From an uncultured Chloroflexia bacterium (GTDB lineage Bacteria > Chloroflexota > Chloroflexia > Thermomicrobiales > JALYUS01), in contig CAVXPY010000043.1 of assembly GCA_963763655.1 (NCBI GenBank), positions 49,283-113,282 on the forward strand: 64,000 nt of DNA. Reading direction: 5' to 3'. Each line of letters opens with the position of its first letter. Position 1 is the first letter of the stretch. The notes under the pieces were generated by a model. The model did no database searches and was not told the origin of the DNA. It worked only from the letters and a program-made list of their open reading frames with translations. Made by a program: the position numbers and the translations under genes. This document shows positions 2-55,895 of this stretch, piece after piece.

Positions 2-919
2 GTGATCGCGACACCGCCGATGGAGCGCCGCTCTCTCTGCCTCGCGCTCGCAGATGCGGGTTGCGCCTTGCTCATCGAGAAACCCATGACGGTCGATCTC
101 GCGGATGCGATGGCCATTGCCAATCATTGTCAGCAGGTCGGACAACGCTGCTTCATCGCGATGAACTTCCGCTTTGCTGCGACAACCGTTGCGGCACGAA
201 CCATCCTCCAACGGGGCGATCTTGGTGCGCCGGGGATGGCACACCTGACCTACTGGCGGAACCGTCATGGCTGGGCATCAGGATTGAATAAATATCCCCT
301 GACGATGCGCCAGCCGATGCTGTGGGAGCAAACCGTCCATCACCTCGATCTCATCCGTCATTGCTACGATGCCGAGGTGCGCACCGTCACCGCGACGACC
401 AGTAACCCGGCGTGGAGTGACTACGCGGACGATGCGACGGTCTGTGCGACCTTGACGCTCACCAGCGGCATGATCGTGCAGTACACCGGCACCTGGGCCG
501 CGCGTACTGCACGCGATACCTTCACCTGGCGAACCGACTGCGCGCGCGGTGCGCTCGTGCAGACCGCGCTTTTCGACGGGCTGCATATCGTGCATGATGG
601 TACCGAGGCGATGGAGTACGTGCCATTGCCGGTGCAGGAGCCATTTATGGACGATGTTCGGCTCCTTCTGCGGGCGGTGCTACACGATCTTTCTACCGGC
701 GATGACCGTGCCCCGCGCGTGGACGATCATATCCGAACGCTCGCGGTAACGGCGGCCATCGAAGCATCGGCAGATCTCGGGATGCGCGTCCACGTCCCCT
801 CCTTCGCCGCCGCTTACGGTATCTCGATCCAATCCGACGCCATCGCCATAGCGGGAGAGCGACAACACCATAGCACTCAGCACTCAGTCACTGTAGGGAT
901 ACCCAGCACTCAGCACTAG
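2..919 (+). CDS. Gfo/Idh/MocA-family oxidoreductase, C-terminal part (5' end lies outside the window)
   Basis: ORF 2..919. It has the 'LLIEKPM' EKP motif and the C-terminal alpha/beta domain typical of Gfo/Idh/MocA dehydrogenases. The last codons and the TAG stop are encoded inside a CACTCAG heptamer array. Confidence 0.7.
   Translation: MIATPPMERRSLCLALADAGCALLIEKPMTVDLADAMAIANHCQQVGQRCFIAMNFRFAATTVAARTILQRGDLGAPGMAHLTYWRNRHGWASGLNKYPLTMRQPMLWEQTVHHLDLIRHCYDAEVRTVTATTSNPAWSDYADDATVCATLTLTSGMIVQYTGTWAARTARDTFTWRTDCARGALVQTALFDGLHIVHDGTEAMEYVPLPVQEPFMDDVRLLLRAVLHDLSTGDDRAPRVDDHIRTLAVTAAIEASADLGMRVHVPSFAAAYGISIQSDAIAIAGERQHHSTQHSVTVGIPSTQH
872..918. repeat. tandem heptanucleotide array (CACTCAG/AGCACTC units, 2+2 copies around a 17-nt spacer)
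   Basis: Direct inspection: agcactcagcactcag tcactgtagggataccc agcactcagcactag. It overlaps the stop codon of the upstream gene. Confidence 0.7.
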
Positions 920-940
920 CGCGACCGAAGGGAGCGGCTT

Positions 941-2146
941 GTGGCACGGACAGCGGAGGCCATTGTCGTTGGCGGTGGCGTGAATGGCACGAGTACCGCC
1001 TTCCATCTCGCCGAGCGGGGCATCAAGACGATCCTGATCGACCGGGGCGAGATCGCTGGCGCAAGTACGGGCAAATCGGGTGGCCTCGTCCGTATGCACT
1101 ACACGAACCCGTACGAGGCACGGCTGGCGAACGAGAGTTTGCCCTACTTCCGGGATTGGCGGCATCGCGTGGGCATCGGCGACCCCGGTTTCGCGCGCAC
1201 GGGGTTCATCCAGACCGTCACGCCCCGGAACGTCGCGGCCTTGTCCGACAATGTCCGCATGTTGCAGGGCATCGGCGTCAACACCTGCATCGTCAATGGC
1301 GATGATGTGCGGCGGATGCAGCCGTGGGTCGATACGGACGACCTGATTGCCTGTGCCTACGAACCCGATTCCGGTTGCGCGATGCCGGGTGACACAGCGC
1401 GCTCCTTCGCGCGGGCGGCGGAACGACTCGGCGCAGAGATCGTCACCGGCACGACGGTGACGGCGCTACGGACGGACGCCGGGCGCGTTGTGGGTGTCTC
1501 CACCGATGGCGGCGATTTCGACGCGCCGCTCGTCATCGTCTGCGCGGGTGTCTGGGGGGTATCGCTCTTCGCCAGGATCGGTATCGACCTCCCCATCGTC
1601 GCGCACCGCACGCAAGTGGTCCTCTTCGCCCGGCAGGGAGCACTGCCGCGTGGTGCGGACGGCCACATGGTCTTCATCGATACGGCGCTCGGCTCGTATT
1701 TCCGACCGTACGGAGAGCGCGAGACGCTAATCGGTGTGCGGCAGCGCTCCCGCTTCGCGCCCTCTGCCGATCAGTACGACGAGCGAGCCGACCCAGAAAT
1801 TGTCGCGGACTCGAGGCAAACGATTGCGCGGCGCATCCCCGATATGGAGGGTGCGACGGTGACGCGCGATTGGGCGGGCATCCTCGATATGACACCGGAT
1901 CATTGCCCGATCTTGGAGGCGAACCTCGGCGCGGACGGCCTCTATCTCGCCGCCGGATTCAGCGGCAGCGGCTTCAAGAGTGGCCCCTATGTCGGGCATC
2001 TGATGGCCACCTGGGCCGCCACCGGCACGCAGCCCGAGGCCGCAGCACCCTTCCCACTCGCCCGATTCGCGGCAGGCGAATTAATCGCACCCGCGCATCC
2101 CTATGTCGATGATGGCGGGGAGACGGTGTCCTCCGTTCCGCACTAA
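941..2146 (+). CDS. FAD-dependent oxidoreductase (DAO family; sarcosine oxidase beta / glycine oxidase-like)
   Basis: 401-aa ORF with an N-terminal 'IVVGGGVNG' Rossmann FAD-binding motif. Length and C-terminal region fit DAO-family enzymes. It starts 22 nt after the preceding gene. Confidence 0.75.
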   Translation: MARTAEAIVVGGGVNGTSTAFHLAERGIKTILIDRGEIAGASTGKSGGLVRMHYTNPYEARLANESLPYFRDWRHRVGIGDPGFARTGFIQTVTPRNVAALSDNVRMLQGIGVNTCIVNGDDVRRMQPWVDTDDLIACAYEPDSGCAMPGDTARSFARAAERLGAEIVTGTTVTALRTDAGRVVGVSTDGGDFDAPLVIVCAGVWGVSLFARIGIDLPIVAHRTQVVLFARQGALPRGADGHMVFIDTALGSYFRPYGERETLIGVRQRSRFAPSADQYDERADPEIVADSRQTIARRIPDMEGATVTRDWAGILDMTPDHCPILEANLGADGLYLAAGFSGSGFKSGPYVGHLMATWAATGTQPEAAAPFPLARFAAGELIAPAHPYVDDGGETVSSVPH

Positions 2147-2253
2147 TCGAGGCGTTCGTCACATGCATACCAGATAATCCGTAATTTATGGTCTACCTCC
2201 CATCAAAGCCAGCGATCTGGATGCGGAGTCAGGGCCTGTGTGTTCTCGATCGA

Positions 2254-2388
2254 CCTCACCCCCCAACCCCCTCTCCATCAAGTGGAAAGGGGGAGCGACC
2301 TATGCAATGCCTCGGTGTATGAGGAACGCCACGGCAAATACCGCGAGGCATCCCTCTCCACGCAGATGGAGAGGGGCCGGGGGTGAGG
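2254..2388. repeat. family-A hairpin element (arms CCTCACCCCC..CCTCTCCATC and GATGGAGAGGGGCCGGGGGTGAGG), copy 1 with a long (~80 nt) loop
   Basis: The inverted arms are seen directly. The same arms recur at 11495, 22041, 29136 and 63221. The right arm contains a nested hairpin ctctccacgcagatggagag. Confidence 0.65.
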
Positions 2389-9762: not shown

Positions 9763-10585
9763 GAGCGACGACCTCGCGTGGTTGAAAGGAATTCGCGCCC
9801 TCGTCTTCGATATGGACGGCGTGCTCTGGCGCGGCAAGGAAGCATTGCCCGGCCTCAACGAAATCTTCGACTGGATGGCAGGCGGAGCAGATTCCCTATC
9901 TGCTCGCCACGAACAACTCGATGAGCACCGCGCAGATGTACGTCGAGCGGCTGGCAGGGCCACGGCGTGACCGTGCCGAAGGAGACGATCATCACGTCCG
10001 GCATCGCCGTGCGCGATTACCTGCGCGCCGACCTACCCGCCGGATGTGACGGTCGGCGCGGTGGGGATGCAGGCGCTGATCGAAGTGCTCTTCGATGAAG
10101 GCGGCTTCACGCGGGATGATCGCCGCCCGCAGGTGCAGGTCGTCGGGACGGACCTCAATTTCGGCTACGACGACATCAAACGCGCCTGCCTCGCGATCCG
10201 CGCCGGGGCCGCCTTTATCGCCACGAACCCGGACACGACGCTGCCGACCGAGGAAGGCCTGGTGCCGGGTTGCGGCGCGATGATCGCCGCCCTCGTCGCC
10301 TCCACGGATGTGCAGCCAACCGTGATCGGCAAGCCGGAAAAGTACATGTTCGAACTTGCCTGCCAGCGCCTCGGCTTGCAACCGCACGAAGTGCTGATGG
10401 TCGGTGACCGGCTCGATACGGACATTCTCGGGGCGAACCGGATCGGCGCGCGCACCGCGCTCGTCCTCACCGGCGTCTCGCAGCGCGAGGAGGTCGTCAC
10501 CACCGGCATCGAGCCGACCATGATCGCCGCCGACCTCATCGAACTCCTCGACCGCTTGAAAGCGATGCGTAGCAATGAGCAATGA
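9761..10585 (+). CDS. HAD-superfamily hydrolase, subfamily IIA (NagD-like); at least 2 apparent frameshifts
   Basis: GTG start with a GGAGG SD, overlapping the hom stop (GTGA). The motifs 'FDMDGVLW' and 'YLLATNNS' lie in a shifted frame. The C-terminal block 'GKPEKYMFELA...LMVGDRLDTDILGA' is present. Confidence 0.7.
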
Positions 10586-10683
10586 GCGAGCGCCTATGGG
10601 CAGTAGCAATGAGTTCGGGAGCACGAGGTGCGGAGATTGACGCTGAATCCCACTCAGCACTCAGCACTCAGCACTCAGCACTG
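10571..10683. repeat. two adjacent heptanucleotide arrays: (GCAATGA)n at 10571-10613 and (CACTCAG)x4.7 at 10651-10683
   Basis: Direct inspection: agcaatgagcaatgagc...cagtagcaatgag and cactcagcactcagcactcagcactcagcact. Confidence 0.75.
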
Positions 10684-11494: not shown

Positions 11495-11570
11495 CCTCAC
11501 CCCCGGCCCCTCTCCATCGCCGCACAAATCTGATACCCATCGTAACTTTCTGGCGATGGAGAGGGGAGGG
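11495..11570. repeat. family-A hairpin element, copy 2
   Basis: cctcacccccggcccctctccatcgcc-[26 nt]-ggcgatggagaggggaggg is an inverted repeat forming a ~27-bp imperfect stem. Confidence 0.7.
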
Positions 11571-12093: not shown

Positions 12094-12096
12094 GCT

Positions 12097-12986: not shown

Positions 12987-12989
12987 GGA

Positions 12990-13062: not shown

Positions 13063-13100
13063 ACTCAGTCCTTAGTCCTCAGTCCTCAGTCCTTCGTCCT
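13063..13100. repeat. tandem heptanucleotide array (AGTCCTC/AGTCCTT x5)
   Basis: cactcagtccttagtcctcagtcctcagtccttcgtcct. It directly abuts the stop codon of the EF-G-like gene on the minus strand. Confidence 0.75.
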
Positions 13101-15191
13101 TATGTCGCCGCTGCGGCGGCTTCGTGGCGCGCGTGCGACTCCTTGATGATCGTCTCTTGCAAGTGCGCGGGGACGGTTTCGTAGCGGTCGAAGTGCATCG
13201 AGAAGGTGCCGCGTCCCTGCGTCATCGAGCGGAGATCGGTCGCGTAGCGCTGCACTTCGGCGAGCGGGGCGTCTGCCTCGATCGTCGTGAAGCCGCGACC
13301 GGGGTTCATGCCATGGACGCGCGCGCGCTTGCTGTTCAGGTCGCTCATGATGTCGCCGGTGTAGGAGTCCGGGACGGTGATCTCAAGGTGATAGACCGGC
13401 TCCAGGAGGACCGGATGCGCCTTCTGCGCCGCTTCCTTGAAGCCCTGCGATCCGGCGATCTTGAAGGCCATTTCGGAGGAGTCCACCGCGATGATACTTG
13501 CCGTCCGTCAGGGTCACGCGGACATTCGTCACCGGGAAGCCGGCGAGAAAGCCCTCGTGTAGGGACTCGCGGATACCCTTCTCGACTGCCGGGATGAAGT
13601 TCTTCGGCACATTGCCGCCGACGACCGTGTCCTTGAACTCGAAATCGTTGTCCGTGGTCGGCTCAACGATCAGGACGACTTCTGCGAACTGGCCGTGACC
13701 GCCCGTCTGCTTTTTGTGGCGGCTGGTGACCTGCGCCGTGCCCTGCACCGTCTCGCGGTACGGGACGACGGGCATATCGAGGTCCACATTGACGCCGAAC
13801 TTGCGCGCCATCCGCTCCGTCGCGATCTGGACATGCGAATCGCCCATGCCGGAGACGAGCGTGTCGCCCGTCACGGGGTCGCGGTCGATATGGATCGTCG
13901 GGTCCTCCTCAACGAGGCGATGCAGGCTCGTCCCCAGCTTGTCGAGGTCGCCCTTGCTCTTCGGGCGCACCGCGACGGTGTAAGACGGGTTCGGGAAATG
14001 GACGCCATCGAGGACGATAGGGTGTTCCGGCGCGCAGAGCGTGTCGCCCGTCGCGGCTTCCGCGAGTTTCGTCACCGCGCCGATGTCGCCGGGGCCGACA
14101 TCCCCGACTGCGGTTTGCTCTTTGCCGCGCACGACGTAGAGGCTGCCGATATGCTCATTCTTGGCATGGTTGGCGTCCAGGAGATTGGTGTTGCCGTGGA
14201 CGGTGCCCGTGTAGACGCGGAAATACGTCAGCTTGCCGACGTACGGGTCCGCCATCGTCTTGAAGACGAGCGCGACTGCCGGTTCGCTCGCGCCAACTTT
14301 AATGGCTGCAGGCTTACCGTCCGTGGTCTGCGCAGCGAGGCCCGCGCTGTCCGCACCGGGAAGAATATCGACAATCGCATCGAGTAGCGCGCTCGTTCCG
14401 GTCACCTTCTGGCAGGCACCCACGAGGACGGGGATGATATCGCCCGCCGCGACGGCTTTCCGCATCGCCGCCTTCAGTTCGTCCTCGCCAATCTCCTCAT
14501 CGCCGAGGAAGCGTTCGATCAGGTCGTCGTCCGTCTCCGCGATCTTCTCGACGAGCGCCAACCGCGCTTCCTCGACGGCGTCCGTCATGTCGCCGGGGAT
14601 GCTCGTCGCGGTCATGCTGCCATCGTTCTTACCATTCGCGGTGTAGGCGGTGCGGCTGAGGAGGTCCACATAGCCAGCGAAGGACGCCTCGCTGCCGATT
14701 GGCAGGTGGAGGGGGATGATGGCGCTTCCCCACGCCTCCTGCACCTGTTGGAGGGTGCGGGCGAAGTTCGCGTTCTCGCGGTCGAGCTTGTTCATGAAAA
14801 CGAGGCGTGGAAGCCGCGCCTCGTCGCTATATGCCCAGACTTGCTCGGTGCCGACCTCCACACCGGAGGCGGCGCAAAGCACAATGACCGCGGCGTCCGC
14901 CGCACGGAGGGCGGATTTGATCTCGCCGACGAAGTCCGCATAGCCGGGCGCATCGAGGAGGTTGATCTTGTGATCGCGCCATTCGAGCGGCAGGACCGAG
15001 GTACTGACGGAGATGTGGCGCTTGATCTCGTCTGGGTCCCAGTCCGAAATCGTGTTGCCGTCCTCGACGCGACCGAGGCGCGTCGTGGCTTTCGCGGTAA
15101 ACAGCATCGCTTCGCTGAGCGTTGTCTTCCCCGCGCCACCGTGCGAGAGCAGGACAATGTTGCGCAGTCTCTCAGGGGGATACTGTTTCAT
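13100..15191 (-). CDS. EF-G-family translational GTPase (EF-G paralogue); one apparent frameshift near 13490
   Basis: ATG at 15189-15191 with a GGAGG SD. G1 motif 'HGGAGKTT' and G3 motif 'DAPGYADF'. The domain II-V blocks are present. The C-terminal domain V ('...HFDRYETVPAHLQETIIKES') lies in ORF 13100..13486. Confidence 0.8.
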
Positions 15192-16656: not shown

Positions 16657-16662
16657 CGGCGG

Positions 16663-21267: not shown

Positions 21268-21411
21268 ATGCAGTCGATCTATCTCTATGTCATCGTCATC
21301 CTCATCATCGTCCTGACGATATTCATCGTGCGGCAGGTGCGCTTGCGTCGCGCAATTGCCGCCCGCCGCGCCGCCCGCGATGCTGCTTCCCGCACCAGGG
21401 GTGAAACCGAT
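21268..21411 (+). CDS. candidate small membrane peptide (47 aa)
   Basis: ATG ORF 'MQSIYLYVIVILIIVLTIFIVRQVRLRR...' with one TM helix and locally low GC. No homology support. Confidence 0.2.
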
Positions 21412-21414
21412 TGA

Positions 21415-21547
21415 ACCGCAGAGGACGCAGAGAGCGCAGAGCACGCAGAGAAATAAGAGGAAAAGAAACAGATTGCCCTCGTCGCGTTCTTTGCGTTCGT
21501 TCTCTTCTTCCCCTCTGTGCCCTCTGCGCTCTCTGCGTGCTCTGCGT
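21415..21547. repeat. inverted pair of heptanucleotide arrays, (CGCAGAG)x4 and (CTCTGCG)x4, around a ~60-nt AT-richer spacer
   Basis: cgcagaggacgcagagagcgcagagcacgcagag ... ctctgtgccctctgcgctctctgcgtgctctgcg. The arms are reverse complements, so they can form a ~34-bp imperfect hairpin between purA and fabZ. Confidence 0.75.
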
Positions 21548-21582
21548 TGATCTGGTTTCGATGGAGGTAGGTGAGGTGGTAG

Positions 21583-22023
21583 GTGATGCTTGATCGGGCG
21601 GCTATCGAGGCGATTATTCCGCACCGCGCGCCCTTCTTGCTCCTCGATCGCATCGTGGCGATTGAGGCGGGCAAATCGGCCATCGGGGAACTCGATGTGC
21701 GCGACGATGCCTTCTGGGTGCCCGGCCACTTCCCGCAGTACGCCGTGATGCCCGGAGTATTGATCGTCGAAGCGCTGGCCCAGGTCGGCGCGGTCGCCCT
21801 CCTGAGTATGGCGGAGTATCGCGGCAAGCTCGCCTTCTTCGGTGGGATTGATGGCGTCCGCTTCAAGCGACAGGTGCGCCCCGGTGATACGCTCCGGCTC
21901 GAAGTGACGCTCGACGCGATACGGCGCGGCATCGGCAAGGGGCGGGCAACCGCCACCGTCGGCGGTACACTCGCAGTGCGGGGCGAACTGCTCTTCGCGG
22001 TCGGCGATGCGACGAAGGACTGA
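21583..22023 (+). CDS. fabZ: 3-hydroxyacyl-ACP dehydratase
   Basis: Intact, 146 aa; '[13 protein letters not shown]' and '[19 protein letters not shown]' are present. The stop TGA lies inside a ggactgaggactgag motif. Confidence 0.9.
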
Positions 22024-22040
22024 GGACTGAGTTGGAGAAC

Positions 22041-26813: not shown

Positions 26814-29087
26814 ATGAGTGTTCAGACGGATGTCCGCGATGAACTGCTCGCGACGATCCTGCGCACCGCGCCGGTCAGTATCATCGTCATCGAAGCGGGG
26901 ACGTTGCGTATCCTCCTTGCGAACGAGCAGGCGAAACGCACCCTCGATCCGATATGGTACGATCGCGACCTCGCCTCCTACACGATGACGGACCTCTTTG
27001 GCGAAGAACGAGTCGCGAACTTCCGCGCCCTGGTGCAGCGCATCACCCGGACGGGCGAGCCGGTGCATGTGCGCGATCAGCCCTTCGATGGGTTCGCGCG
27101 CGGCCGCACGTATTGGAACTACGATGTGACGCCGCTCTTCGATGCCGCCGGAAACTGCCATGCGGTGATGCTCGGTTCGACAGATGTCACCGCGCATGTC
27201 CTCGCGCAGCAGAAACTGGAGGAGACGAACGCGGCGCTGATGGCCGTCGCGATCCGCAATGCTCAGTTGCACGAGCAGATGCAGCAGCGCATGACCGAGC
27301 TCGCCACCCTGGCGGAGGTCGGCGCGACGGTGGCCGTCTCCCTCGATTTCGATGAGGTGGTGGACCGTGTGCTGGCGGCGGTCTGCGCGCTCATTCCGCA
27401 TGACCGGGCCTTCCTGATGTTGGATGAGACCCCGGATGCCCTCCGGTCAGTCGCCGCGCGCTCCGCGACTGCGGAGGAGGTCGTGCAAGTCGGTCTGCTC
27501 ATTCCGAAAGCGCACAGCCTGAATGGATGGGTCTTTCAGAGTCGGCAACCGCTCCGGGTCGCGGATGTGCGTGCTGCGGGCAATACGCTGCCGATGCACT
27601 ACCCGCCGCAGGATGATCTCCAACTGCGCGCGGTCCTCTGCGTGCCGCTGATCGCCCGAGAGCAGGCCATCGGCACGATTTATCTCGCCCGCTATGAGCC
27701 GGATGTCTATACGGACGAGGACCTCGAACGGCTGCATCTGGTCGCCGCGCAGGCAGCCGTCGCGATAGCGAACGCGCTCCTCTATACGCGCAGCGTCCAG
27801 CAGGTCGCGCAACTCCAAAGGCTCAATGATGAACTGGAAACGCTCCGCGAAGTCGGCATCGCGACGACCGGCACGCTCGATCTCCCCGCCGTTCTCCGCC
27901 GTGTCCTCGCGGAAATCTCCCGTGTCGTGCCGTATGAGCAGGGGATGATCACGCTCGAAGTGCCCGATCGCGGCGTGCTTCGGGTCGCTGCCGCGACCGG
28001 CTCCGTAGTTGAACCGTTCCTTGGTATGGAGATGGGGATCAAAGAGAGCCTCAATGGCTTCGTCTTCACCGCAGGCGAAACGGTCTGCGTTGATGACTTC
28101 TGGGCATCTGAGGAGTGGCTGGCACGCTCGCATCGAATCGTCGTGCAGCGTGACGAACTGCGGAGCATTCTCTGCGCGCCGCTGCGGATCGGTGGGCAAA
28201 GTATCGGCACGATCTACCTCGCGCACGGTAAGCCTTCGGTCTATCGTGCAGAGGACATCGACCGGATCGAGCGGTATTGCCGCCAGGTCGCGGTGGCGGT
28301 GGCGAATGCGCGGCTCTATGAGCAGATTCAGAGCCAGGTCACCGAGCTTCGCCGCCTGAATGTCGATCTCGAAACGGCGAACCAGCATAAGAGTGAGTTC
28401 CTCGCCACGATGAGTCACGAACTGCGGACACCCCTCAATGCAATTATCGGTTTCTCGGAGCTCTTGGCGGACGATATTGTGGTGAGTGCTGCCGAACGGC
28501 GCGAATGCCTGATGGACATCCATTCGAGTGCCGGGCATCTGCTCTCGCTCATCAATGATGTCCTTGATGTCGCGAAAATCGAGTCCGGGCGGATGGAGAT
28601 GCGCCCGGTCGCCTTTGTCGTCGCGGACGAACTGCGCGAGGCGGAGCGCGTCATGGCCCCCCTCATCCTCACGAACCGCCAGACGCTCTCGATCGCGGTC
28701 GCTCCCAAAACGCCCCGCCTCTATGCGGATCGCGCGCGTTTCCGGCAGATCGTGCTCAATGTCCTCTCTAACGCAAACAAATTCACGCCCGAAGGAGGGC
28801 GCATTACGATCGCGGTAGACACCGTGGCCGATGATGTGCGCGTGCGTGTGACGGACACCGGCATCGGCATCCGCCCGGAGGACGCCTCTAAGGTCTTTGA
28901 GGCGTTTCGCCAAATCGATGGGTCGCTCTCGCGTCGCTACAGCGGCACCGGTCTCGGCCTCGCCCTCACGAAGCAATTGGTCGAACTGCAACACGGCAGC
29001 ATCGCCTTCGCAAGCGTCCCCGGCAAGGGAACGACCTTCACGATCACCCTCCCCGCTGCAAGGGAAGGACTGAGGACTGAGGACTAA
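26814..29087 (+). CDS. sensor histidine kinase with PAS, two GAF domains, HisKA and HATPase_c; no adjacent response regulator
   Basis: Intact 757-aa ORF. H-box '[18 protein letters not shown]'. N, G1 and G2 boxes ('NANKFT', 'DTGIGI', 'GTGLGLAL'). The last 6 codons and the TAA stop are encoded by a GAGGACT heptamer array. Confidence 0.85.
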
Positions 29088-29098
29088 GGACTGAGGAC
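29066..29098. repeat. tandem heptanucleotide array (GAGGACT x4.5), the reverse complement of the 13063 array
   Basis: aggactgaggactgaggactaaggactgaggac; it contains the histidine kinase stop codon. Confidence 0.75.
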
Positions 29099-29225: not shown

Positions 29226-29406
29226 CAAAGCGTGAGGAATGCGTACTTCGCTCGTACCGCACGGGTAATTGAGCGCATGAGATTACCAGGTTCGTGTAAC
29301 TCGCAGTCCTCAATTCTCAGCACTTCCCCCACAAGTGGAACCTCTGTGGTCTGCCAGTCGTATCTTCTGCGGGGCCTGTTATGATACGAGGACACTGGAG
29401 GACCAT

Positions 29407-30455
29407 ATGACTGATACTGATGCACGCGTACGTTACCCGCAAGCCGCACCGACCCGCCGACCGAGCAGGCTGGACCGGATACCGGGCTATCGTGGTTACC
29501 ATGAGAAGGAATCGCGACGCGATGCGGATGGCGCATTGCGCCGGATGCTCGCTGCGGATTACGATGAGCAGTCAAAGCGGCTGACGCGCGTGCAGCAAAG
29601 CTTGCTTGCTGCGCGCCGCCTCGACCAACTCGCGCCGGTAGATCAAGCGCCGAGCGGCTGAAGCATTTCATGGACCGCGTCCGCACGGCGACCTATGGAT
29701 ATGCCTGGATGCGCGACACGATTCAGGTGGACGAACGTGCGCTCGATCAACTCTACCAGTTCGATCTCGCGCTCGCGGATGGTGTGGATACACGTCAGCA
29801 CCGAAAGTTGAGGCGACTCGAGCAAGCGGCGGACGGCGGCGGCGAACTGCAGCCCGCCGCTCGGCGATCTCGACGCGTCGGTGCAGGACTTGCAGGAGCG
29901 GTTCAATGCGCGCGCCGATATCTTCCAGACCGGGCAGCCGACGCAGAACACGAAACTCTTCGATATGGTCCAAACGCCTGCGCTGCTTGCCGGGTCAGAC
30001 GCGGACGATTCCGCTCCTCAATCTCAACGACGCCGTCAGTGTGGATGGCCGGGACTGGCTCGTCGCCGCACGCACGCGGGTGGATGGCGCTGTGCCATGG
30101 ACCGATTATCTCCTGCGCGATGGGCAGATAGGAGCGATGGCTGATCGTGCCGGGTGATGCGACGCGACCCATCGCGCTCACCGAGCAGGTGGATTTCTGG
30201 ACGCGCGTCCCGCCCGTCACGCCCCTCATGTTCGGCGGCGTTTCCTATTCACTCGGTCGAGCAGATGAGTGGGGCAGGCACCATCACTGCGGCAGCGGGC
30301 GAGCGCACCGGCAAGGTCACGCCTATGTCTATACGGGCGTGGATGGCGCATATCTCGTCCTGCGCGATTGGGGTACCGACCGCCAGGCGCTCGTTGGCCG
30401 CATGATTGACCGGCGCGAATTGCAGGTGTATCCGCAGATAGCGAGTAAGCAGTAG
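29407..30455 (+). CDS. hypothetical protein immediately upstream of pspA (C-terminal part weakly DUF4178-like); at least 3 apparent frameshifts
   Basis: Four overlapping ORFs (29335.., 29670.., 29906.., 30147..) fit one ~350-aa product. C-terminal segment 'VYTGVDGAYLVLRDWGTDRQALVGRMIDRRELQVYPQ'. The family assignment is tentative. The stop codon is embedded in an agtaggcagtag motif. Confidence 0.45.
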
Positions 30456-30533
30456 GCAGTAGAGAGTGGATCGCAGAGATGGGGATGGCTTGGGCTAGTC
30501 CCTACTCAGTCCTGAAGCGACCGAAGGGAGCAA

Positions 30534-31312: not shown

Positions 31313-31411
31313 TGAGACGAGCGCACAGACACAGACGCCGACCCCCGCAAAGCAGCAATAAGCACTGAGTCCGGGAAAGTGGACTGGGCGCAAGATGTTT
31401 GCACTCAGTCC

Positions 31412-31446
31412 TCAGTCCTCAGTTCTCAGTCACTCCGCGACGAAGG
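31412..31446. repeat. tandem heptanucleotide array (CAGTCCT/CAGTTCT x4) between pspA and the SPFH gene
   Basis: cactcagtcctcagtcctcagttctcagtcactc. Confidence 0.7.
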
Positions 31447-41118: not shown

Positions 41119-41132
41119 CGACTAGGCAGCAG

Positions 41133-41170: not shown

Positions 41171-41205
41171 CAGGGATGGATAACGCGAAATCGTGGATAC
41201 TCTGA

Positions 41206-44836: not shown

Positions 44837-45407
44837 TCATTGATGCTTTCGGCGGAACACATTAGCTACCGGGACGGACCAACCGGGCAGCGCCGGTTCC
44901 GCATTCGCGATATCGCCTTGATGGAAGGTGATCGCCTCTGTTGGCTTGTCGAAGCGATAGCTGGCGATTGTCTGACGAATAGGATCAACATCCCAGACGA
45001 CTTGTGTTCCCACCGCGAAGTAATCCGCCCGCTTTGCCGCGTACTCGCGATCCTTTGCCGGTCCGTAATCGCCTTCCGAGCGTACTTCGGCGGCAAAAAT
45101 CGGGATGCCCTCGATGAATTTCATTTCTTGTTCTTCGGAAGGAACATCAAACGTGTACGATGCATCGGGGCTGATCGATCGGCGGTGCGAGAGGTTGACG
45201 ATATACGCGGGACCATCGGCCAGTGCTGCCCCCGCACCTGTGTGATCCTCGTACTCGAGAAGGGCATCCGCAATGAAGAACGAAATTCGCCCTGGCCGAA
45301 ATCCGGTTGGCGACATCTTCACCAGCTTTCCATCGACCAATTCGTATTTGCCGTCATCGGGTGCATTAGTAGAGGTCTTCGATGGTTGCTTCGGTCTTTG
45401 TCTGCAT
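44837..45407 (-). CDS. Uma2-family (DUF820) putative endonuclease, copy 2 (tandem paralogue); one apparent frameshift near 45366
   Basis: ATG at 45405-45407 with an AAAGGAG SD. The same N-terminal 13 aa as copy 1 are followed by a stop and then resume as '...APDDGKYELVDGKLVKMSPTG...FAAEVRSEGDYGPAKDREYAAKRADYFAVGTQVVWDVDP...'. Nucleotide identity to copy 1 is ~75%. Confidence 0.65.
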
Positions 45408-46065: not shown

Positions 46066-46120
46066 ATGCGTAATCGGATGAACCGCCATGACGCCGGGGA
46101 CGCCGGAGAGGGGGACGGAA

Positions 46121-46225
46121 CACAGAGCGCACGGAGAGCACAGAGACCACAGAGAAGAGAAAATGCATTCACTCTCTGTGTCCTCTATGTCCTCTATGTC
46201 CTCTGTGGTCTCTGTGCTTCTCTCT
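46121..46225. repeat. inverted pair of heptanucleotide arrays, (CACAGAG)x5 and (CTCTGTG/TCCTCTA)x6, with an ~11-nt spacer
   Basis: cacagagcgcacggagagcacagagaccacagagaagaga aaatgcattca ctctctgtgtcctctatgtcctctatgtcctctgtggtctctgtg. Confidence 0.75.
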
Positions 46226-46325
46226 TCTCTTGGCATCCTTTCGGCATGCGCGGAATCATACCGCGAAGCGATGAGTGAGACATTTGTTGCGCGGGATCGT
46301 GCTGGTATCGCGGCCTGCGGTCCGG

Positions 46326-48309: not shown

Positions 48310-48747
48310 TCAGTGGCCGAGGATGTACACGCTCATTGCGCGGGGCTGCCACTGCACGTCGGTCTCTTTGAAGCGGGCGAGTAGCGCGGTCGCCTCGGCG
48401 TGCAGCGGGCGGATGCGCGGATTGCGTACCTTCCATCTGCCGGTGACCTGAAAGATCACCAGCTGGCTATCGCCGCGCACGGTGAGCGTGTACATCTTGG
48501 GCTCCAAAGATGCGGCGGTCAGGCGGGCGATGACGTCCCGCAGTGCGGCGATCAGCGTGCGGTATTCGGCCTCGTTGTTTGTCACTCGATTGCCGAACTC
48601 GAGGCGCTCGATCTGCCACAGCGCGCCGGTGCGCAGTTGGTACGAGCCGTATCCTTCGCCGGGATTTCCCCGCGCGCCGCCATCGAAGATAATCGTGTAG
48701 TCCGCATCGTTTCGTTCCATTGCGACGATGGTATCATGTCCGTACAT
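48310..48747 (-). CDS. ribonuclease H (RNase HI-like, reverse-transcriptase-type RNase H fold)
   Basis: 'IIFDGGARGNPGEGYG...NNEAEYRTLIAALR...TVRGDSQLVIFQVTGRWKV' carries the DEDD catalytic residues in their typical spacing. The start is possibly at M10 (48720). Confidence 0.75.
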   Translation of the reverse strand: MYGHDTIVAMERNDADYTIIFDGGARGNPGEGYGSYQLRTGALWQIERLEFGNRVTNNEAEYRTLIAALRDVIARLTAASLEPKMYTLTVRGDSQLVIFQVTGRWKVRNPRIRPLHAEATALLARFKETDVQWQPRAMSVYILGH

Positions 48748-48766
48748 TGCGGCAAAGGGGGAGGAG

Positions 48767-48906
48767 AGTAGGCAGTAGGCAGTAGGCAGTAGTCAGTGAC
48801 CAGAGATCGGACGTACGCGACCTGTCGCATCGCCCGACGAGCGATAGGCGCATTCTCCCTTCTGCCTACCGACTACTGACTACTGTCTACTGTCTACTGC
48901 CTACTC
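48767..48906. repeat. inverted pair of heptanucleotide arrays, (AGTAGGC)x4 and (CTACTGN)x6, around a ~63-nt spacer
   Basis: agtaggcagtaggcagtaggcagtagtcagt ... ctgcctaccgactactgactactgtctactgtctactgcctactc. It lies between the divergent RNase H and CvpA-like genes. Confidence 0.75.
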
Positions 48907-48923
48907 AAGGGGATAGGGGGTTC

Positions 48924-54305: not shown

Positions 54306-54390
54306 CGACGGTCACTTCCTCTTTCTCGATGCCCGAGGGCAGACGCCTCGTGGCCTCCCAGACTCCCATGCTTCCCGGATACTCTCTCGC

Positions 54391-55458
54391 TCAACCACCC
54401 TTGAGTTGCTGCAGCATATAGTCATAGAGCTGATCGGTTACCTGGCTGATCTGCCCATTGCTGTCCATCGTGAAGACCATCGGGATGGAGGTCTTCTGGG
54501 TTCCTTTGCCGACATCAGCGACATAGAAATAGATACCGCCTTTGGTCGGGTCCGTGGTGCCATCTTTGCCGTATCCGGCAACGTAGTGATAACTGGAGTA
54601 GGTGAAGCCTTGCTGCTGCTGCGCCTGGAGAACGGCGCTCAGGACGGTCTTATCATCCCCACGGGAGATGCGGTGGGCCTTCTCCTGTGGGCCGAGGGCG
54701 TTCCAGACCGCGTCCGCGTCGCCCTTCTGCACGGCGGTGAGGTATGCCTGCACCGACGCAGTCTCCGGCGGGAGGTTGACTACGCCGCTGGCGGCGTTCG
54801 GGGTCGCACTTGCGGTGCCACTGCCCGCGAACCACTTATCGTAGGCGAACCAGCCGGTGAGGAGCAGCACAATGATGAAACCAACCGTCAGCGTGGGGCG
54901 GACACCGAACATGAACCTGCTAGCCGAACTCCCACTACGCACCATGCGGCGCATCATCCGGCGACCCATCCGTGCCTTGGAGGCTTTCGGTGCGGGCGGG
55001 GAGACGACCAGCGGTGGGGTGTACGAACCCATCGGCGCGGAGTAGCCGCCCGCAATCGCCGGTGCATAGGCGGGTGGTCGCTGCGCTTGGGCGGGGGGCG
55101 GTGGTGGCGGGGGCGCGGCGGCCTGCGGCGGCACGTAGGCTTGTGGGGCATACTGCGGTGCGGGCTGCGGACGCGGTGCTTCGTACTGGACCGGCTCCTG
55201 CCGGGTCGGTCGCGCAGGGTACTGCGGCAATGGCGGGGCCCAGACGAGCCGTTCCTGCTCCGAATCGATCGAGAACGGTTCGCTTGCCTGGCCTTCGCCT
55301 GCTGCTGCACCCTGCTGCGTGCCGGGTGGCGCGTTGCGTGGTTCGGTAGCGGCCCCTTCTGCGGGCGGGGGTGGTTCGTGCCCGTGCGTCTCGGGGGGCG
55401 GGATGCGCTCGTCCTCGGGCGGGGCGCCGTGGGGTGGTGCCTGGTATCGGTCGGTCAT
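54391..55458 (-). CDS. hypothetical Pro-rich single-pass membrane protein, co-directional and adjacent upstream of ftsH
   Basis: Intact, 355 aa. The N-terminal ~160 aa are Pro/Ala/Gln-rich. The TM helix is 'TVGFIIVLLLTGWFAY'. A C-terminal ~150-aa globular domain follows. The gap to ftsH is 85 nt. Confidence 0.5.
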   Translation of the reverse strand: MTDRYQAPPHGAPPEDERIPPPETHGHEPPPPAEGAATEPRNAPPGTQQGAAAGEGQASEPFSIDSEQERLVWAPPLPQYPARPTRQEPVQYEAPRPQPAPQYAPQAYVPPQAAAPPPPPPPAQAQRPPAYAPAIAGGYSAPMGSYTPPLVVSPPAPKASKARMGRRMMRRMVRSGSSASRFMFGVRPTLTVGFIIVLLLTGWFAYDKWFAGSGTASATPNAASGVVNLPPETASVQAYLTAVQKGDADAVWNALGPQEKAHRISRGDDKTVLSAVLQAQQQQGFTYSSYHYVAGYGKDGTTDPTKGGIYFYVADVGKGTQKTSIPMVFTMDSNGQISQVTDQLYDYMLQQLKGG

Positions 55459-55789
55459 GTCTCAACCCTTCTTGAAGTACTGCATGCCCGCTCTCGCACG
55501 CTAAGGGCCGGGTGATCGCGGATGCTCTCGTCAGCGTACGAAGCAATCCTGAATTTCGCCTGAGTGAACCCTGAAAAACCGATGAACATTCGTTCCGAGT
55601 GATCGTCATTGAATGGCAGTTTCCTGCCATCATGCGCCGAAGCGGCTACGTCCTGCTTCCGGGAAAGCATAGTCAAGTGTAGCATAGATGCGCGCTCCCG
55701 TTCAACGCCGCCTCTGGCGCACCGCAACGCGGTAAAACGCCGCTCACTGCTTGTCATCACCGCACCCCGCGTGTACGATGCGACGACGG

Positions 55790-55895
55790 AGCAATGAGCA
55801 ATGAGCAATGAGCTAATGAGGGGTGAGGACTGAGGACTAAGGACTGAGGACCGAATAGGGAGTCTTCTGGCTACTGCCTACTGCCTACGGTCTAC
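55790..55895. repeat. three different heptanucleotide arrays back to back: (GCAATGA)x4, (GAGGACT)x4, (CTACTGC)x3
   Basis: gagcaatgagcaatgagcaatgagctaatgag gggtgaggactgaggactaaggactgaggacc ... ctactgcctactgcctacggtctactc. It lies just upstream of ltaE. Confidence 0.75.

What the first reader, a model, noticed from the sequence alone, without database searches (positions are those of the whole stretch)
872..55895. Dispersed tandem heptanucleotide arrays at gene boundaries, often as inverted pairs and often carrying the stop codon
At ten or more loci there are 3-6 tandem copies of 7-nt units: CACTCAG (872, 10651), GCAATGA (10571, 55790), AGTCCTC and its complement GAGGACT (13063, 29066, 31412, 55824; partial at the fabZ stop, 22021), CGCAGAG/CTCTGCG (21415-21547), CACAGAG/CTCTGTG (46121-46225), AGTAGGC/CTACTGC (30446, 48767-48906, 55871). 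Three loci (21415, 46121, 48767) are inverted pairs of arrays separated by 11-63 nt and can fold into ~30-bp imperfect hairpins. Others stack two or three different arrays back to back (10571+10651; 55790+55824+55871). The arrays sit immediately at gene ends. The stop codons of the Gfo/Idh/MocA gene (TAG in CACTCAG), fabZ (TGA in GGACTGAGGACTGAG), the histidine kinase (TAA in GGACTAAGGACTGAG) and the pspA-upstream gene (TAG in AGTAGGCAGTAG) are all supplied by the array. Because 7 is coprime to 3, three copies of a stop-containing heptamer give a stop in all three frames of one strand. I do not recognise this as a described repeat class. It is not a CRISPR array: the units are 7 nt and there are no spacers.
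Basis: seen in the sequence. Interest (0 to 1): 0.6.

Follow-up and report, generated by a model that had tools for sequence, protein, structure and literature searches.

The report
Tandem 7-base repeats at gene ends
The window, from an uncultured Thermomicrobiales bacterium, is peppered with short tandem 7-base repeats and a second kind of paired 9-base repeats at gene boundaries; both kinds are real and non-random, but they have been described in many bacteria since 1990 and their function is still unknown.

Summary
There are 13 tandem heptanucleotide arrays at 9 loci, far above chance and specific to period 7. All lie in intergenic spacers or in the last or first few codons of genes. Five genes take their stop codon from an array, and a sixth stop directly abuts one.

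Neither class is new. Heptanucleotide simple-sequence repeats are the most abundant intergenic tandem repeat in prokaryotes (Mrazek 2007; SPADE 2018). Described examples include cyanobacterial STRR, TAACTGA in Beggiatoaceae and GGGAATC in Xanthomonas. Geobacter metallireducens has paired 7-mer and 9-mer sites.

Comparison with five related genomes shows that copy number and unit sequence change at fixed positions. The histidine-kinase array is kept in all five genomes compared, always holding the stop codon.

Best explanation: slippage-driven repeats that selection confines to gene boundaries, with paired arrays forming hairpins that sometimes look like terminators.

Still unexplained: the same few units recur across phyla, and inverted pairs are strongly polar.

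Verdict: a new member of a known, still functionless repeat class. Interest is moderate.

The parts
872..919 (+). Two short runs of AGCACTC (872-892 at 2.9 copies, 905-919 at about 2 copies). They encode the last 16 codons of a Gfo/Idh/MocA oxidoreductase ORF. The stop TAG at 917-919 lies in a degenerate unit.
10571..10587 (+). (AGCAATG)x2.4 at the HAD-hydrolase / methyltransferase junction. It holds the HAD stop TGA (10583-10585) and the overlapping ATG (10582). Relative L120 has a 2-copy version, AGCAATGAGCGATGAGG, at the same junction.
10651..10682 (+). (CACTCAG)x4.6, read in frame as SHSALSTQHSAL within the non-conserved N-terminal tail of the methyltransferase ORF. That tail is 14 codons (42 nt) longer than in L120.
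13064..13102 (-). (GGACTGA)-type array of about 5 units, read on the minus strand. It starts directly after the TAA of the EF-G-like gene and lies upstream of cdd. Relative L126 has an orthologous array with the same unit. L120 has a single proto-copy.
21405..21560 (.). Palindromic element with 9-nt-period arms: GATTGAAC + (CGCAGAGNN)x4, a loop, then (NNCTCTGCG)x4 + GTTGATC. It is about 150 bp and is absent from four relatives at this site. It lies between a small ORF and fabZ.
22016..22031 (+). (AGGACTG)x2.3 holding the fabZ stop TGA at 22021-22023. This stop aligns with the TAA of the relatives.
29066..29098 (+). (AGGACTG)x4.7 holding the histidine-kinase stop TAA at 29085-29087. The orthologous array is present in L120, L121, L126 and L127, with differing copy number and unit.
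29305..29325 (+). Degenerate inverted partner (AGTCCTC AATTCTC AGCACTT) of the histidine-kinase array. It is orthologous to the right arm seen in L126 and L121. Here a roughly 200-nt insertion carrying another palindrome separates it from the left arm.
30444..30462 (+). (AGTAGGC)x2.7 holding the stop TAG at 30453-30455 of the frameshifted DUF4178 gene upstream of pspA.
31404..31431 (+). (CTCAGTC)x4 between pspA and an SPFH/Band-7 gene. Relative to transcription it is in the stop-free orientation.
46105..46235 (.). Second palindromic element with 9-nt-period arms: (CACAGAGNN)x4, a loop, then (NNCTCTRTG)x4. It lies between a DJ-1/PfpI gene and a panE-like gene.
48767..48905 (.). True heptamer inverted pair: (AGTAGGC)x4.4, a 64-nt spacer, then (CTACTGN)x6.3. 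It folds into a stem of about 33 bp. It lies between a divergent RNase H-like gene (minus strand) and a CvpA-like gene (plus strand).
55789..55896 (+). Three different heptamer arrays stacked back to back: (GAGCAAT)x4.4, (TGAGGAC)x4 and (CTGCCTA)x4.3. The stack ends 17 nt upstream of the ATG of a beta-eliminating-lyase (threonine aldolase-like) gene.

Best explanation
**What they are.** The heptamer arrays are long simple-sequence repeats of the heptanucleotide class, the same kind as cyanobacterial STRR, Beggiatoaceae TAACTGA and Xanthomonas GGGAATC repeats. Here they occur in an uncultured Thermomicrobiales (Chloroflexota) genome.

**How they arise (inferred from comparisons, not shown directly).** They are born from single or double proto-copies. 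They then expand, contract and homogenise by replication slippage or unequal exchange.

**Why they sit where they do (inferred).** Selection removes arrays that damage genes. Survivors are therefore found in the short intergenic spacers and in the dispensable last or first codons of genes. Because 7 is coprime to 3, a unit that contains a stop trinucleotide closes all three frames within three units. Such an array can overlap a gene end at a cost of only a few altered C-terminal residues. This would explain why arrays so often supply the stop, and why stop-bearing units are enriched.

**A possible role for a subset (inferred).** Where two arrays lie in inverted orientation they form long hairpins of 20-45 bp. 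At some 3' ends, such as downstream of the histidine-kinase gene in relatives, these look like terminator or 3'-stabiliser hairpins, so some arrays have probably been co-opted.

**The second class.** The two 9-nt-period palindromes are separate. They are a widespread, polar, insertion-polymorphic element with a conserved terminal TTnAC motif.
For: **Period 7 is specific.** In the window, period 7 gives 11 runs against 0.68 expected. In 119 unrelated loci there are 236 period-7 arrays against at most 24 for any other period from 4 to 12.

**Arrays avoid coding sequence.** About 88% of the syntenic locus L120 is coding. Yet none of the 13 arrays interrupts a conserved part of a protein.

**Turnover at fixed sites.** At the histidine-kinase 3' end:
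- window: (GGACTGA)x4.7
- L126: (GAGGACT)x3.4
- L127: (ACTGAGT)x3.9
- L121: (AGTGCTG)x4
- L120: 2 copies

The stop codon lies inside the array each time, and the genomes are about 78% identical at nucleotide level.

**Proto-copies.** L120 has a single GAGGACTGG downstream of the EF-G gene. L120 also has a 2-copy AGCAATGAGCGATGAGG at the ATGA start/stop overlap of the HAD and methyltransferase genes.

**Decaying edges.** Units degrade at array edges, and there is no conserved flank.

**Not an assembly artefact.** Nearly identical contigs from separately deposited assemblies (JGI and ENA) carry identical arrays: L121 = L122 and L124 = L125.

**Stop trinucleotides are enriched.** 67% against 40% for random and 49% for GC-matched heptamers. 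After removing seed-like units, 59 of 94 against an expected 45.5 (sd 3.7). None of 300 control sets reached the observed value.

**Hairpins.**. In L126 and L121 the 3' arm is followed by UUUUCCCUU and UUUCCCCUUUGU. In relatives, the site downstream of fabZ holds either a conventional GC hairpin or an array-based hairpin (L124).

**Literature.** Heptamers are the most abundant intergenic tandem repeat across prokaryotes, and a slippage hypothesis has been proposed.
Against: **Unit reuse.** Pure local slippage does not explain why the same few units recur. Four units make up all 13 arrays in 64 kb.

In IMG/VR, exact arrays of about 3 copies number 35 for AGTCCTC, 26 for CACTCAG and 52 for AGTAGGC. 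Three composition-matched permutations give 9, 7 and 2.

**Shared internal pattern.** Three arrays in the window share the same internal variant order, GGACTGA-GGACTAA-GGACTGA.

**Polarity.** GGACTGA inverted pairs are polar 27:2. Random juxtaposition of arrays would not give this.

**Long persistence.** The histidine-kinase array persists across about 22% nucleotide divergence. This suggests constraint, or at least a very stable hotspot.

**No orientation bias.** With a crude ORF proxy the stop-bearing strand does not preferentially face the upstream gene across phyla: 74 tail against 69 head. With real gene calls, the independent sites split 6:3.

**Imperfect null.** The stop enrichment was tested against whole-locus heptamers, not against true intergenic sequence.
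Confidence: 0.6

Rival explanations
1. The arrays are selected cis-acting RNA elements at gene 3' ends and between cistrons. In this view a frame-independent stop cassette, often joined to a hairpin formed with an inverted partner, terminates transcription or protects the upstream mRNA from 3' exonucleases. The GAGGA in the GGACTGA unit could also act as a Shine-Dalgarno-like site.
For: - The array at the histidine-kinase stop is conserved in five species, and an inverted partner is recognisable in the window, L121 and L126.
- The hairpins in L126 and L121 are followed by U-rich tails.
- Array-based and conventional hairpins occupy the same position downstream of fabZ.
- Five stop codons lie inside arrays.
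- Stop-bearing units are enriched.
- Inverted pairs outnumber direct pairs 45:18, with a median gap of 54 nt.
Against: - No window array is followed by a T-run, and none was called terminator-like.
- The 48767 pair sits between divergent genes.
- Other pairs or arrays lie between co-directional, probably co-transcribed genes: small ORF to fabZ, DJ-1 to panE, and HAD to methyltransferase.
- Most arrays are unpaired and cannot fold.
- The close relative L120 lacks nearly all of them without an obvious substitute.
- There is no orientation bias in the cross-phylum sample.
Confidence: 0.2
2. The arrays are binding-site arrays for sequence-specific nucleic-acid-binding proteins that polymerise with a 7-bp (or 9-bp) register. 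Candidates include ribbon-helix-helix proteins, as in the omega repressor, or nucleoid proteins. In this view they form a global regulatory or chromosome-organising network.
For: - The periodicity is strict.
- A small unit repertoire recurs within the genome and across phyla.
- The 9-mer half-element almost always has exactly 3 copies, plus a conserved TTnAC flank, in metagenomes spanning 36-72% GC.
- Earlier authors proposed IHF/HU or other binders for the equivalent Geobacter and Nostoc repeats.
Against: - At least four unrelated heptamer units plus two 9-mer variants coexist within 64 kb. This would need many specific binders.
- Copy number is very variable, from 2 to 6 here and up to 12 or more elsewhere.
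- Units drift at orthologous sites (GGACTGA, GTACTGA, GTGCTGA).
- No candidate protein was identified or tested here.
Confidence: 0.1
3. The paired elements, especially the 9-nt-period palindromes, are non-autonomous mobile elements of the MITE or REP type. Their arms would be tandem sub-terminal binding sites for a transposase, and the heptamer arrays would spread by a related copy-and-paste route.
For: - The 21405-21560 element is a clean insertion of about 150 bp relative to four relatives.
- It has conserved terminal inverted motifs (GATTGAAC ... GTTCAATC), also seen in another Thermomicrobiales MAG.
- Orientation is strongly polar: 37:1 for the 9-mers and 27:2 for GGACTGA pairs.
- Arrays at 13064 and 22016 share flanks, GACGAA|array|GT(T)GGAG.
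- The arrays occur in viral and proviral contigs.
Against: - No target-site duplication could be defined.
- Interior length varies from 13 to 288 nt.
- Most 9-mer sites are solo half-elements.
- GGACTGA arrays have no conserved flanks.
- No transposase was linked to them.
Confidence: 0.1

Closest known systems
Heptanucleotide long simple-sequence repeats of prokaryotes (Mrazek et al. 2007, as summarised in PMC4679880 and PMC4692102; Mori et al., SPADE, bioRxiv 10.1101/309039)
   Same: - Tandem 7-nt units, a few copies per array.
- Many dispersed, mostly intergenic loci.
- Period 7 dominates over neighbouring periods.
- Phylogenetically scattered, array-rich genomes.
- Function unknown, with a slippage hypothesis on record.
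   Different: - The host is Thermomicrobiales, which I did not find described.
- The specific units are GGACTGA, CACTCAG, GCAATGA and AGTAGGC.
- The overlap with stop codons and the cross-species persistence documented here did not turn up in the papers I could read or in a text search for these unit sequences.
STRR (short tandemly repeated repetitive sequences) of heterocystous cyanobacteria (Mazel et al. 1990; cited; unit sequences from my own knowledge)
   Same: - Tandem heptamers.
- Several unit families per genome.
- Dispersed and intergenic.
   Different: - STRR in the strict sense are cyanobacterial, with units CCCCAGT, TTGGTCA and CAACAGT. Neither the host nor the units match.
- The (AGTCCTC)n unit of this window does occur in cyanobacteria such as Okeania and Coleofasciculus.
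TAACTGA direct repeats of marine Beggiatoaceae, cyanobacteria and Bacteroidetes (MacGregor 2015, PMC4679880)
   Same: - A heptamer with an ACTGA core and a TGA stop.
- 2-6 copies per set.
- Close to coding-region boundaries.
- A cross-phylum distribution suggesting horizontal spread or convergence.
   Different: - There the repeats lie mostly just upstream of start codons in one orientation, with essentially no inverted pairs.
- Here they lie mostly at or after stop codons, several units coexist, and inverted pairs occur.
GGGAATC repeats of Xanthomonas and GGGGAYT repeats of Nostoc (Rehm et al. 2015, PMC4692102)
   Same: - Intergenic heptamer arrays.
- Extensive length variation between close species at conserved positions.
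- Some occur as inverted pairs able to form stem-loops.
   Different: Those units are G-rich and form G-quadruplexes. The units here cannot form G4.
Geobacter metallireducens multicopy elements (Aklujkar et al. 2009, PMC2700814): class 2 sites (three tandem TCTCCGTSY, paired on opposite strands), class 3 sites (five tandem MTYCTGA heptamers, paired) and four tandem GGACCGG heptamers
   Same: - The architecture matches the window's 9-nt palindromes: three to four 9-nt repeats on each strand at variable distance.
- The reverse complement RSACGGAGA resembles the CACGGAGAG unit at 46130.
- Paired heptamer arrays also occur there.
   Different: - The consensus sequence differs: CRCAGAG here against CACGGAG there.
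- The authors guessed IHF/HU binding, which was not tested there or here.
REP/BIME-type extragenic palindromes and intrinsic terminators (from general knowledge)
   Same: Dispersed intergenic hairpins at gene 3' ends. Some here are followed by U-rich tracts in relatives.
   Different: - The arms are built from tandem short units rather than a unique palindrome.
- There is no U-tract in the window.
- Some copies sit in promoter regions or inside operons.
- No RAYT link was tested.
Heptad operator and centromere arrays bound by the omega repressor of plasmid pSM19035 (from my own knowledge, not checked with the tools)
   Same: Contiguous 7-bp units in direct or inverted orientation, read by a protein that polymerises with a 7-bp register.
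   Different: That system has a single unit (WATCACW), is plasmid-borne and uses a few promoters. Nothing here links the arrays to such a protein.

Membership tests
Heptanucleotide long simple-sequence repeats (broad sense) | Head-to-tail copies of a 7-nt unit, more copies than chance allows | tested here: met
   13 arrays of 2.3-6.3 copies. 11 perfect runs of at least 16 nt against 0.68 expected.
Heptanucleotide long simple-sequence repeats (broad sense) | Period 7 over-represented relative to neighbouring periods | tested here: met
   In the window, period 7 gives 11 runs while periods 8-12 give 0-1. In 119 loci from many phyla, 236 arrays against at most 24 for any other period.
Heptanucleotide long simple-sequence repeats (broad sense) | Predominantly non-coding location | tested here: met
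   All arrays lie in spacers or in non-conserved terminal codons, although about 88% of a syntenic locus is coding.
Heptanucleotide long simple-sequence repeats (broad sense) | Copy number varies between related genomes at the same site | tested here: met
   Histidine-kinase end: 2, 3.4, 3.9, 4 and 4.7 copies. EF-G/cdd spacer: 1, 3.3 and 5 copies.
STRR in the strict sense (cyanobacterial) | Host is a (heterocystous) cyanobacterium; units are CCCCAGT, TTGGTCA or CAACAGT | tested here: not met
   The best PurA matches are Thermomicrobiales MAGs at 93-94% identity. The units differ.
Geobacter-type paired 9-nt sites (class 2) | Three or so tandem 9-nt repeats on each strand, paired at variable distance | tested here: met
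   Window 21417-21546 and 46121-46213. In metagenomes, 3 copies in 111 of 120 loci, with 37 carrying a downstream inverted partner at gaps of 13-288 nt. Description of the family.
Geobacter-type paired 9-nt sites (class 2) | Consensus TCTCCGTSY | tested here: inconclusive
   The window consensus is CTCTGYGNN. Only the 46130 unit (CACGGAGAG) and some metagenome variants match the Geobacter core.
CRISPR array | Repeats of 23-50 nt separated by unique spacers of similar length | tested here: not met
   Units are 7 or 9 nt and contiguous, with no spacers.
Intrinsic (Rho-independent) terminator | GC-rich hairpin immediately followed by a T/U run, downstream of a gene in its sense | tested here: not met
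   Hairpins are present, but there is no T-run and no call by the terminator scan in 20-32 kb. The 48767 pair lies between divergent genes. Orthologous pairs in L126 and L121 do have U-rich tails.
MITE / REP-like mobile palindromes | Terminal inverted repeats, presence/absence polymorphism, target-site duplication, many near-identical copies | tested here: inconclusive
   Inverted termini and an insertion polymorphism are shown for 21405-21560. No target-site duplication is definable. The copies are not near-identical.
Protein-bound heptad arrays (omega/RHH type) | A cognate DNA-binding protein that recognises each unit | not testable with these tools
   No binding data. The resemblance rests on periodicity only.
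Phase-variation (contingency) SSRs | The repeat lies inside a reading frame or promoter spacer, so that copy-number change switches a gene on or off | tested here: inconclusive
   Only the 10651 array is inside an ORF, in a non-conserved N-terminal tail, with a net insertion of 42 nt that keeps the frame. The arrays at 48767 and 55789 are in 5' regions, but no promoter was mapped.

The most novel reading that the evidence does not exclude
Tandem heptamers (and the 9-nt paired elements) may not be passive microsatellites. They could be a conserved, cross-phylum class of gene-boundary modules. In this reading the prime period exists because it yields frame-independent stop cassettes. A shared unit repertoire (GGACTGA, CAGTAGG, CACTCAG, all rich in CTGA/TCAG) and the strict polarity of inverted pairs would then reflect a dedicated trans-acting factor or a copy-and-paste mechanism spreading between phyla and their viruses.
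Probability: 0.15. Interest if true: 0.75.

Novelty: new member of a known kind. Interest (0 to 1): 0.4.

Why it matters
Tandem heptamers are reported as the most abundant intergenic tandem repeat in prokaryotes, and the SPADE authors note there is "no clear clue" to their function. This window adds three things.

- **A new host lineage.** The arrays occur in Thermomicrobiales.
- **Persistence with turnover.** One array has stayed at a gene's stop codon across five diverged species while its unit sequence and copy number changed.
- **Quantitative hints.** Stop-bearing units are enriched, CTGA/TCAG is enriched, a small unit repertoire is shared across phyla and viral contigs, and inverted pairs are polar.

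These hints turn the question of why the period is 7 into testable hypotheses. On its own, though, the window shows an example of a known phenomenon, not a new system.

Tried and rejected
- **Exact-protein look-ups.** Look-ups of the window's fabZ and purA found nothing, so the genome itself is not in that collection. I used relatives found through a PurA homology search instead.
- **Gene calling by GC3.** A GC3-based gene caller was too noisy. It was replaced by Pfam scans and tblastn with the relatives' proteins.
- **Rfam.** At gathering thresholds it found only one tRNA and no known RNA family at any array.
- **Terminator scan.** Nothing was called at the arrays.
- **CRISPR.** Rejected: no spacers.
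- **Assembly artefact.** Rejected: separately deposited (JGI and ENA) assemblies carry identical arrays, and Illumina-type MAGs of relatives carry orthologous arrays.
- **Orientation test across phyla.** I asked whether the stop-bearing strand faces the upstream gene. With a crude longest-ORF proxy there was no bias. The proxy is weak in high-GC DNA, so this is not decisive.
- **Convergent-gene context.** I tested whether inverted pairs sit mainly between convergent genes. They do not: 4 of about 22 classifiable pairs.
- **Conserved flanks.** A search around GGACTGA arrays, which would indicate a larger element, found none.
- **Literature text search.** A search for the exact unit sequences found nothing relevant. 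Mrazek et al. 2007 is not held in the library and is cited second-hand.

Full report
**1. What is in the sequence**

Tandem Repeats Finder and direct reading confirm 13 head-to-tail heptanucleotide arrays at nine loci of the 64-kb window (GC 64%). They are:
- AGCACTC at 872-892, with a second short run at 905-919
- AGCAATG at 10571-10587
- CACTCAG at 10651-10682
- AGTCCTY at 13064-13102
- AGGACTG at 22016-22031 and 29066-29098
- AGTAGGC at 30444-30462
- CTCAGTC at 31404-31431
- AGTAGGC at 48767-48797, facing CTACTGN at 48862-48905
- a stack of GAGCAAT, TGAGGAC and CTGCCTA at 55789-55896

Only four unit families, counting complements and rotations, make up all 13 arrays.

The signal is specific to period 7. 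There are 11 perfect period-7 runs of at least 16 nt, against a mean of 0.68 (maximum 3) in 100 Markov resamplings. Periods 4 and 5 are at chance level. Periods 8-12 are absent apart from one period-9 run.

At 21417-21546 and 46121-46213 the period is 9: a 7-nt core CRCAGAG followed by two variable bases, three to four copies, facing an inverted set. The pattern gives 12 matches against 0.34 expected.

**2. Organism and gene context**

The window's adenylosuccinate synthase is 93-94% identical to proteins of uncultured Thermomicrobiales MAGs. I fetched six distinct syntenic loci from relatives, with their gene calls: L120, L121, L123, L124, L126 and L127. L122 and L125 are near-identical second assemblies of L121 and L124. 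Over the shared region they are 71-80% identical to the window at nucleotide level.

Pfam scans and tblastn with the relatives' proteins give the gene map around the arrays.

tblastn also shows that the window assembly has many local frameshifts inside otherwise well conserved genes. Examples are homoserine dehydrogenase, the HAD hydrolase, the methyltransferase, EF-G, M42 peptidase, the glycosyltransferases, DUF4178, PanE and the threonine-aldolase-like gene. These are most simply indel errors of the assembly. They do not create the arrays, because nearly identical contigs from separately deposited assemblies (JGI and ENA) carry identical arrays (L121 = L122 and L124 = L125, one mismatch each in 21 kb). 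Relatives also have arrays at the same sites.

**3. Position relative to genes**

About 88% of the syntenic locus L120 is coding (from the gene table). Yet no array interrupts a conserved part of a protein.

Translation shows these stops inside arrays:
- HAD hydrolase: ...RSNEQ*, TGA at 10583-10585
- fabZ: ...ATKD*, TGA at 22021-22023
- histidine kinase: ...[11 protein letters not shown] at 29085-29087
- DUF4178: ...SKQ*, TAG at 30453-30455

The Gfo/Idh/MocA ORF runs through two CACTCAG runs and stops at a degenerate unit, GCACTAG (917-919). The TAA of the EF-G-like gene directly abuts the 13064 array.

(GGACTGA)n, (GCAATGA)n and (AGTAGGC)n give a stop in every frame within three units. Their complements, and CACTCAG, are open in all frames.

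One array (CACTCAG at 10651) is translated in frame within the non-conserved N-terminal tail of the methyltransferase. That tail is exactly 42 nt (14 codons) longer than in L120.

The 48767-48905 pair lies between divergently transcribed genes. The triple stack at 55789-55896 ends 17 nt before a start codon.

**4. What the relatives show**

*Histidine-kinase 3' end.* The array is present in all five genomes compared, and the gene's stop codon lies inside it every time. Copy number and unit differ:
- window: GGACTGA x4.7
- L126: GAGGACT x3.4
- L127: ACTGAGT x3.9
- L121: AGTGCTG x4
- L120: AGGATTG AGGACTG AGG (2 copies)

So the array has persisted at one site through roughly 22% nucleotide divergence, while its units changed together. 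This is the behaviour of a repeat homogenised by slippage or conversion.

In L126 and L121 an inverted partner follows at 18 and 90 nt. The window has a degenerate partner at 29305-29325, pushed away by a roughly 200-nt insertion that carries another palindrome.

*EF-G/cdd spacer.* The window has about 5 units, L126 has 3.3 units of the same sequence, and L120 has a single GAGGACTGG.

*HAD/methyltransferase junction.* L120 has two units, AGCAATGAGCGATGAGG, spanning the ATGA start/stop overlap. The window has 2.4 perfect units plus extra arrays.

*fabZ 3' end.* The window's TGA aligns with the relatives' TAA. Downstream, four relatives have a conventional GC hairpin, and L124 has an inverted pair of a different heptamer (TCAGCCN / CTGGCTN).

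*Overall density.* At my scan threshold (at least 17 nt), L120 has no array across the 21-kb syntenic region, where the window has eight.

*The 9-nt palindrome at 21405-21560.* It is a clean insertion of about 150 bp relative to L120, L121, L126 and L127.

**5. Structure**

All three inverted pairs in the window fold into long hairpins:
- 21405-21560: -81.4 kcal/mol, z = -9.0
- 46105-46235: -60.6 kcal/mol, z = -4.9
- 48755-48915: -88.1 kcal/mol, z = -7.6

None is followed by a T-run. The terminator scan of 20-32 kb calls nothing at an array, and Rfam finds no known RNA there.

The orthologous histidine-kinase pairs in L126 and L121 also fold (z = -7.3 and -6.3). These are followed by UUUUCCCUU and UUUCCCCUUUGU, so they look more like terminators.

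**6. Wider distribution**

The hosts include Acidobacteriota, Chloroflexota, Cyanobacteriota, several proteobacterial classes, Gemmatimonadota, Planctomycetota, Nitrospirota, Bacteroidota and others.

In those 855 kb, period 7 again dominates: 236 arrays of at least 3 copies, against at most 24 for any other period from 4 to 12. There are 111 distinct units. Genomes that carry one heptamer array therefore tend to carry many, of many sequences.

Among 150 locus/unit combinations other than the seed:
- 67% of units carry a stop trinucleotide on at least one strand.
- Random heptamers from the same loci give 40%, and GC-matched heptamers give 49%.
- None of 500 and none of 300 control sets reached the observed value.

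After removing every unit within two mismatches of the seed, 59 of 94 still carry a stop against an expected 45.5 (sd 3.7). CTGA/TCAG is 3.7-fold enriched.

Adjacent arrays of the same unit are inverted 45 times and direct 18 times, with a median gap of 54 nt.

GGACTGA pairs are strongly polar. The GGACTGA arm comes first in 27 cases and second in 2 (p = 1.6e-6). For other units the split is 10:5, which is not significant.

Using the longest open frame as a crude gene proxy, I saw no preference for the stop-bearing strand to face an upstream gene (74 against 69). Pairs showed no preference for convergent gene pairs.

GGACTGA arrays have no conserved flanks beyond decaying units.

In the IMG/VR viral collection, exact arrays of about 3 copies number:
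- AGTCCTC: 35
- CACTCAG: 26
- AGTAGGC: 52
- GCAATGA: 8
- three composition-matched permutations of AGTCCTC: 9, 7 and 2

Three of the window's four units therefore belong to a globally favoured repertoire.

**7. The 9-nt class**

- The half-element is nearly always exactly three copies (111 of 120).
- It has a conserved 5' flank, tTTnAC.
- When an inverted partner exists, it lies downstream 37 times and upstream once, at gaps of 13-288 nt.
- Another Thermomicrobiales MAG (L064) has two copies with the same GATTGAAC...GTTCAATC termini as the window's element.

**8. Comparison with what is known**

The class is described.
- Mrazek et al. (2007) found heptanucleotide repeats to be the most abundant long SSR in most prokaryotic genomes and proposed polymerase slippage (as summarised in PMC4679880, and PMC4692102).
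- Specific families include the STRR of cyanobacteria.
- TAACTGA occurs in Beggiatoaceae, cyanobacteria and Bacteroidetes. It lies mostly upstream of start codons.
- GGGAATC occurs in Xanthomonas and GGGGAYT in Nostoc. These vary in length between close species and sometimes form inverted pairs.
- TTTTGAA-type repeats near Nostoc promoters have some reporter evidence of regulatory effects.
- The Geobacter metallireducens genome paper lists four tandem GGACCGG heptamers at 49 sites. It also lists paired sites of five tandem MTYCTGA heptamers, and paired sites of three tandem TCTCCGTSY 9-mers. The last has the same architecture as the window's 9-nt palindromes. The authors tentatively attributed them to IHF/HU binding.
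- A text search for the window's exact units found no relevant paper.

**9. Interpretation**

*Shown:*
- The arrays are real, specific to period 7, excluded from conserved coding sequence, variable in copy number and unit at orthologous sites, and widespread.
- Several stop codons lie in them.
- Pairs fold.

*Inferred:*
- They arise and turn over by slippage or unequal exchange from proto-copies.
- Selection confines them to places where they do little harm.
- A stop-bearing unit with a period coprime to 3 is especially tolerable at a gene's 3' end, because it always closes the frame within three units. This would account for both the stop overlaps and the enrichment of stop-bearing units.
- Some paired arrays have probably been co-opted as 3' hairpins.

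*Not explained by this picture:*
- reuse of a small unit repertoire within the genome and across phyla and viral contigs
- the shared internal variant order GGACTGA-GGACTAA-GGACTGA at three window loci
- the polarity of the pairs
- the long persistence at the histidine-kinase gene

These keep alive three rival readings: selected RNA elements, protein-binding arrays, or mobile palindromes, the last especially for the 9-nt class.

**10. Verdict**

The stop and hairpin observations are correct, but the claim of an undescribed class is not. The window holds a new example, in a new lineage, of a well documented and functionally unresolved repeat class.

Interest is moderate. The specific case is ordinary for array-rich genomes, but the comparative and statistical hints gathered here bear on an open question.

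Noticed in passing
window 8739-9761, 9880-10040, 10860-10990, 13434-13486, 15558-15770, 22295-26761, 29407-30434, 46275-47370, 55913-56828: Many genes show local frameshifts relative to the orthologous proteins of relatives. The alignments jump between frames and then return. This most likely reflects indel errors in the assembly, possibly from long reads, so ORF ends and repeat copy numbers in this window carry some uncertainty.
   Followed up: partly
window 2250-2293, 12986-13029, 16660-16703, 41128-41171: A dispersed palindromic family, CCTAACCCCC(c/a)GCCCCCTTCCCC-loop-GGGGAAGGGGG, lies right after stop codons. The same hairpin follows fabZ in relatives L120, L121, L126 and L127. It is probably the lineage's ordinary 3'-end or terminator hairpin.
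   Followed up: partly
window 11497-11566, 22040-22109, 29136-29225: A second dispersed palindrome family, CCCCTCTCCATCGCCG...loop...CGGCGATGGAGAGGGG (65-90 nt; dG -49 kcal/mol for the fabZ copy). One copy sits between the two arms of the histidine-kinase array pair.
   Followed up: partly
window 21250-21410; L121 11428-11571; L126 9194-9337; L127 11350-11493: A conserved 47-residue, very hydrophobic small ORF lies between purA and fabZ in all close relatives. It has no Pfam hit on record.
   Followed up: no
window 44104-44177 (minus strand) and 44379-44522 / 44982-45125: The only Rfam hit in the window is a tRNA gene. Next to it is a 144-nt direct duplication at 76% identity, spaced 603 nt apart. 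This could be tandem paralogues or a remnant of an integrated element.
   Followed up: no
window 53406-53479: A tandem repeat with periods of 15, 12 and 27 nt (CCGCCGCCCATCATG). It lies inside a long minus-strand ORF (52320-54305) and would encode a Gly/Met-rich repeat. Its period is a multiple of three, unlike the heptamers.
   Followed up: no
window 48310-48747 (minus strand): An ORF with RVT_3 / RNase H-like Pfam hits lies immediately next to the 48767-48905 heptamer inverted pair. It is probably an ordinary RNase HI-type gene, and no link to the repeats was tested.
   Followed up: no
L011 2077-2225 (uncultured deltaproteobacterium MAG): A higher-order repeat: a unit of about 61 nt (GTGGAAAAACATCTGCGCTTTTGCTCCCTGCTCAGCAGTA...) followed by (GGACTGA)x3-4, repeated three times in tandem.
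   Followed up: no
L332, L321, L329 (AGTAGGC arrays) and L292 (CACTCAG arrays), IMG/VR contigs: Some viral or proviral contigs carry many heptamer arrays of the window's units. L332, for example, has eight AGTAGGC matches including inverted pairs. Phages or prophages may carry or spread such arrays.
   Followed up: no
L035 872-896 and 1280-1350 (Candidatus Muproteobacteria MAG): One small Rieske-like gene is flanked upstream by (CACAGAGNN)x3 and downstream by (GAGGACT)x11 or more, which runs into an assembly gap. Both repeat classes of the window therefore co-occur around a single gene in a different phylum.
   Followed up: no
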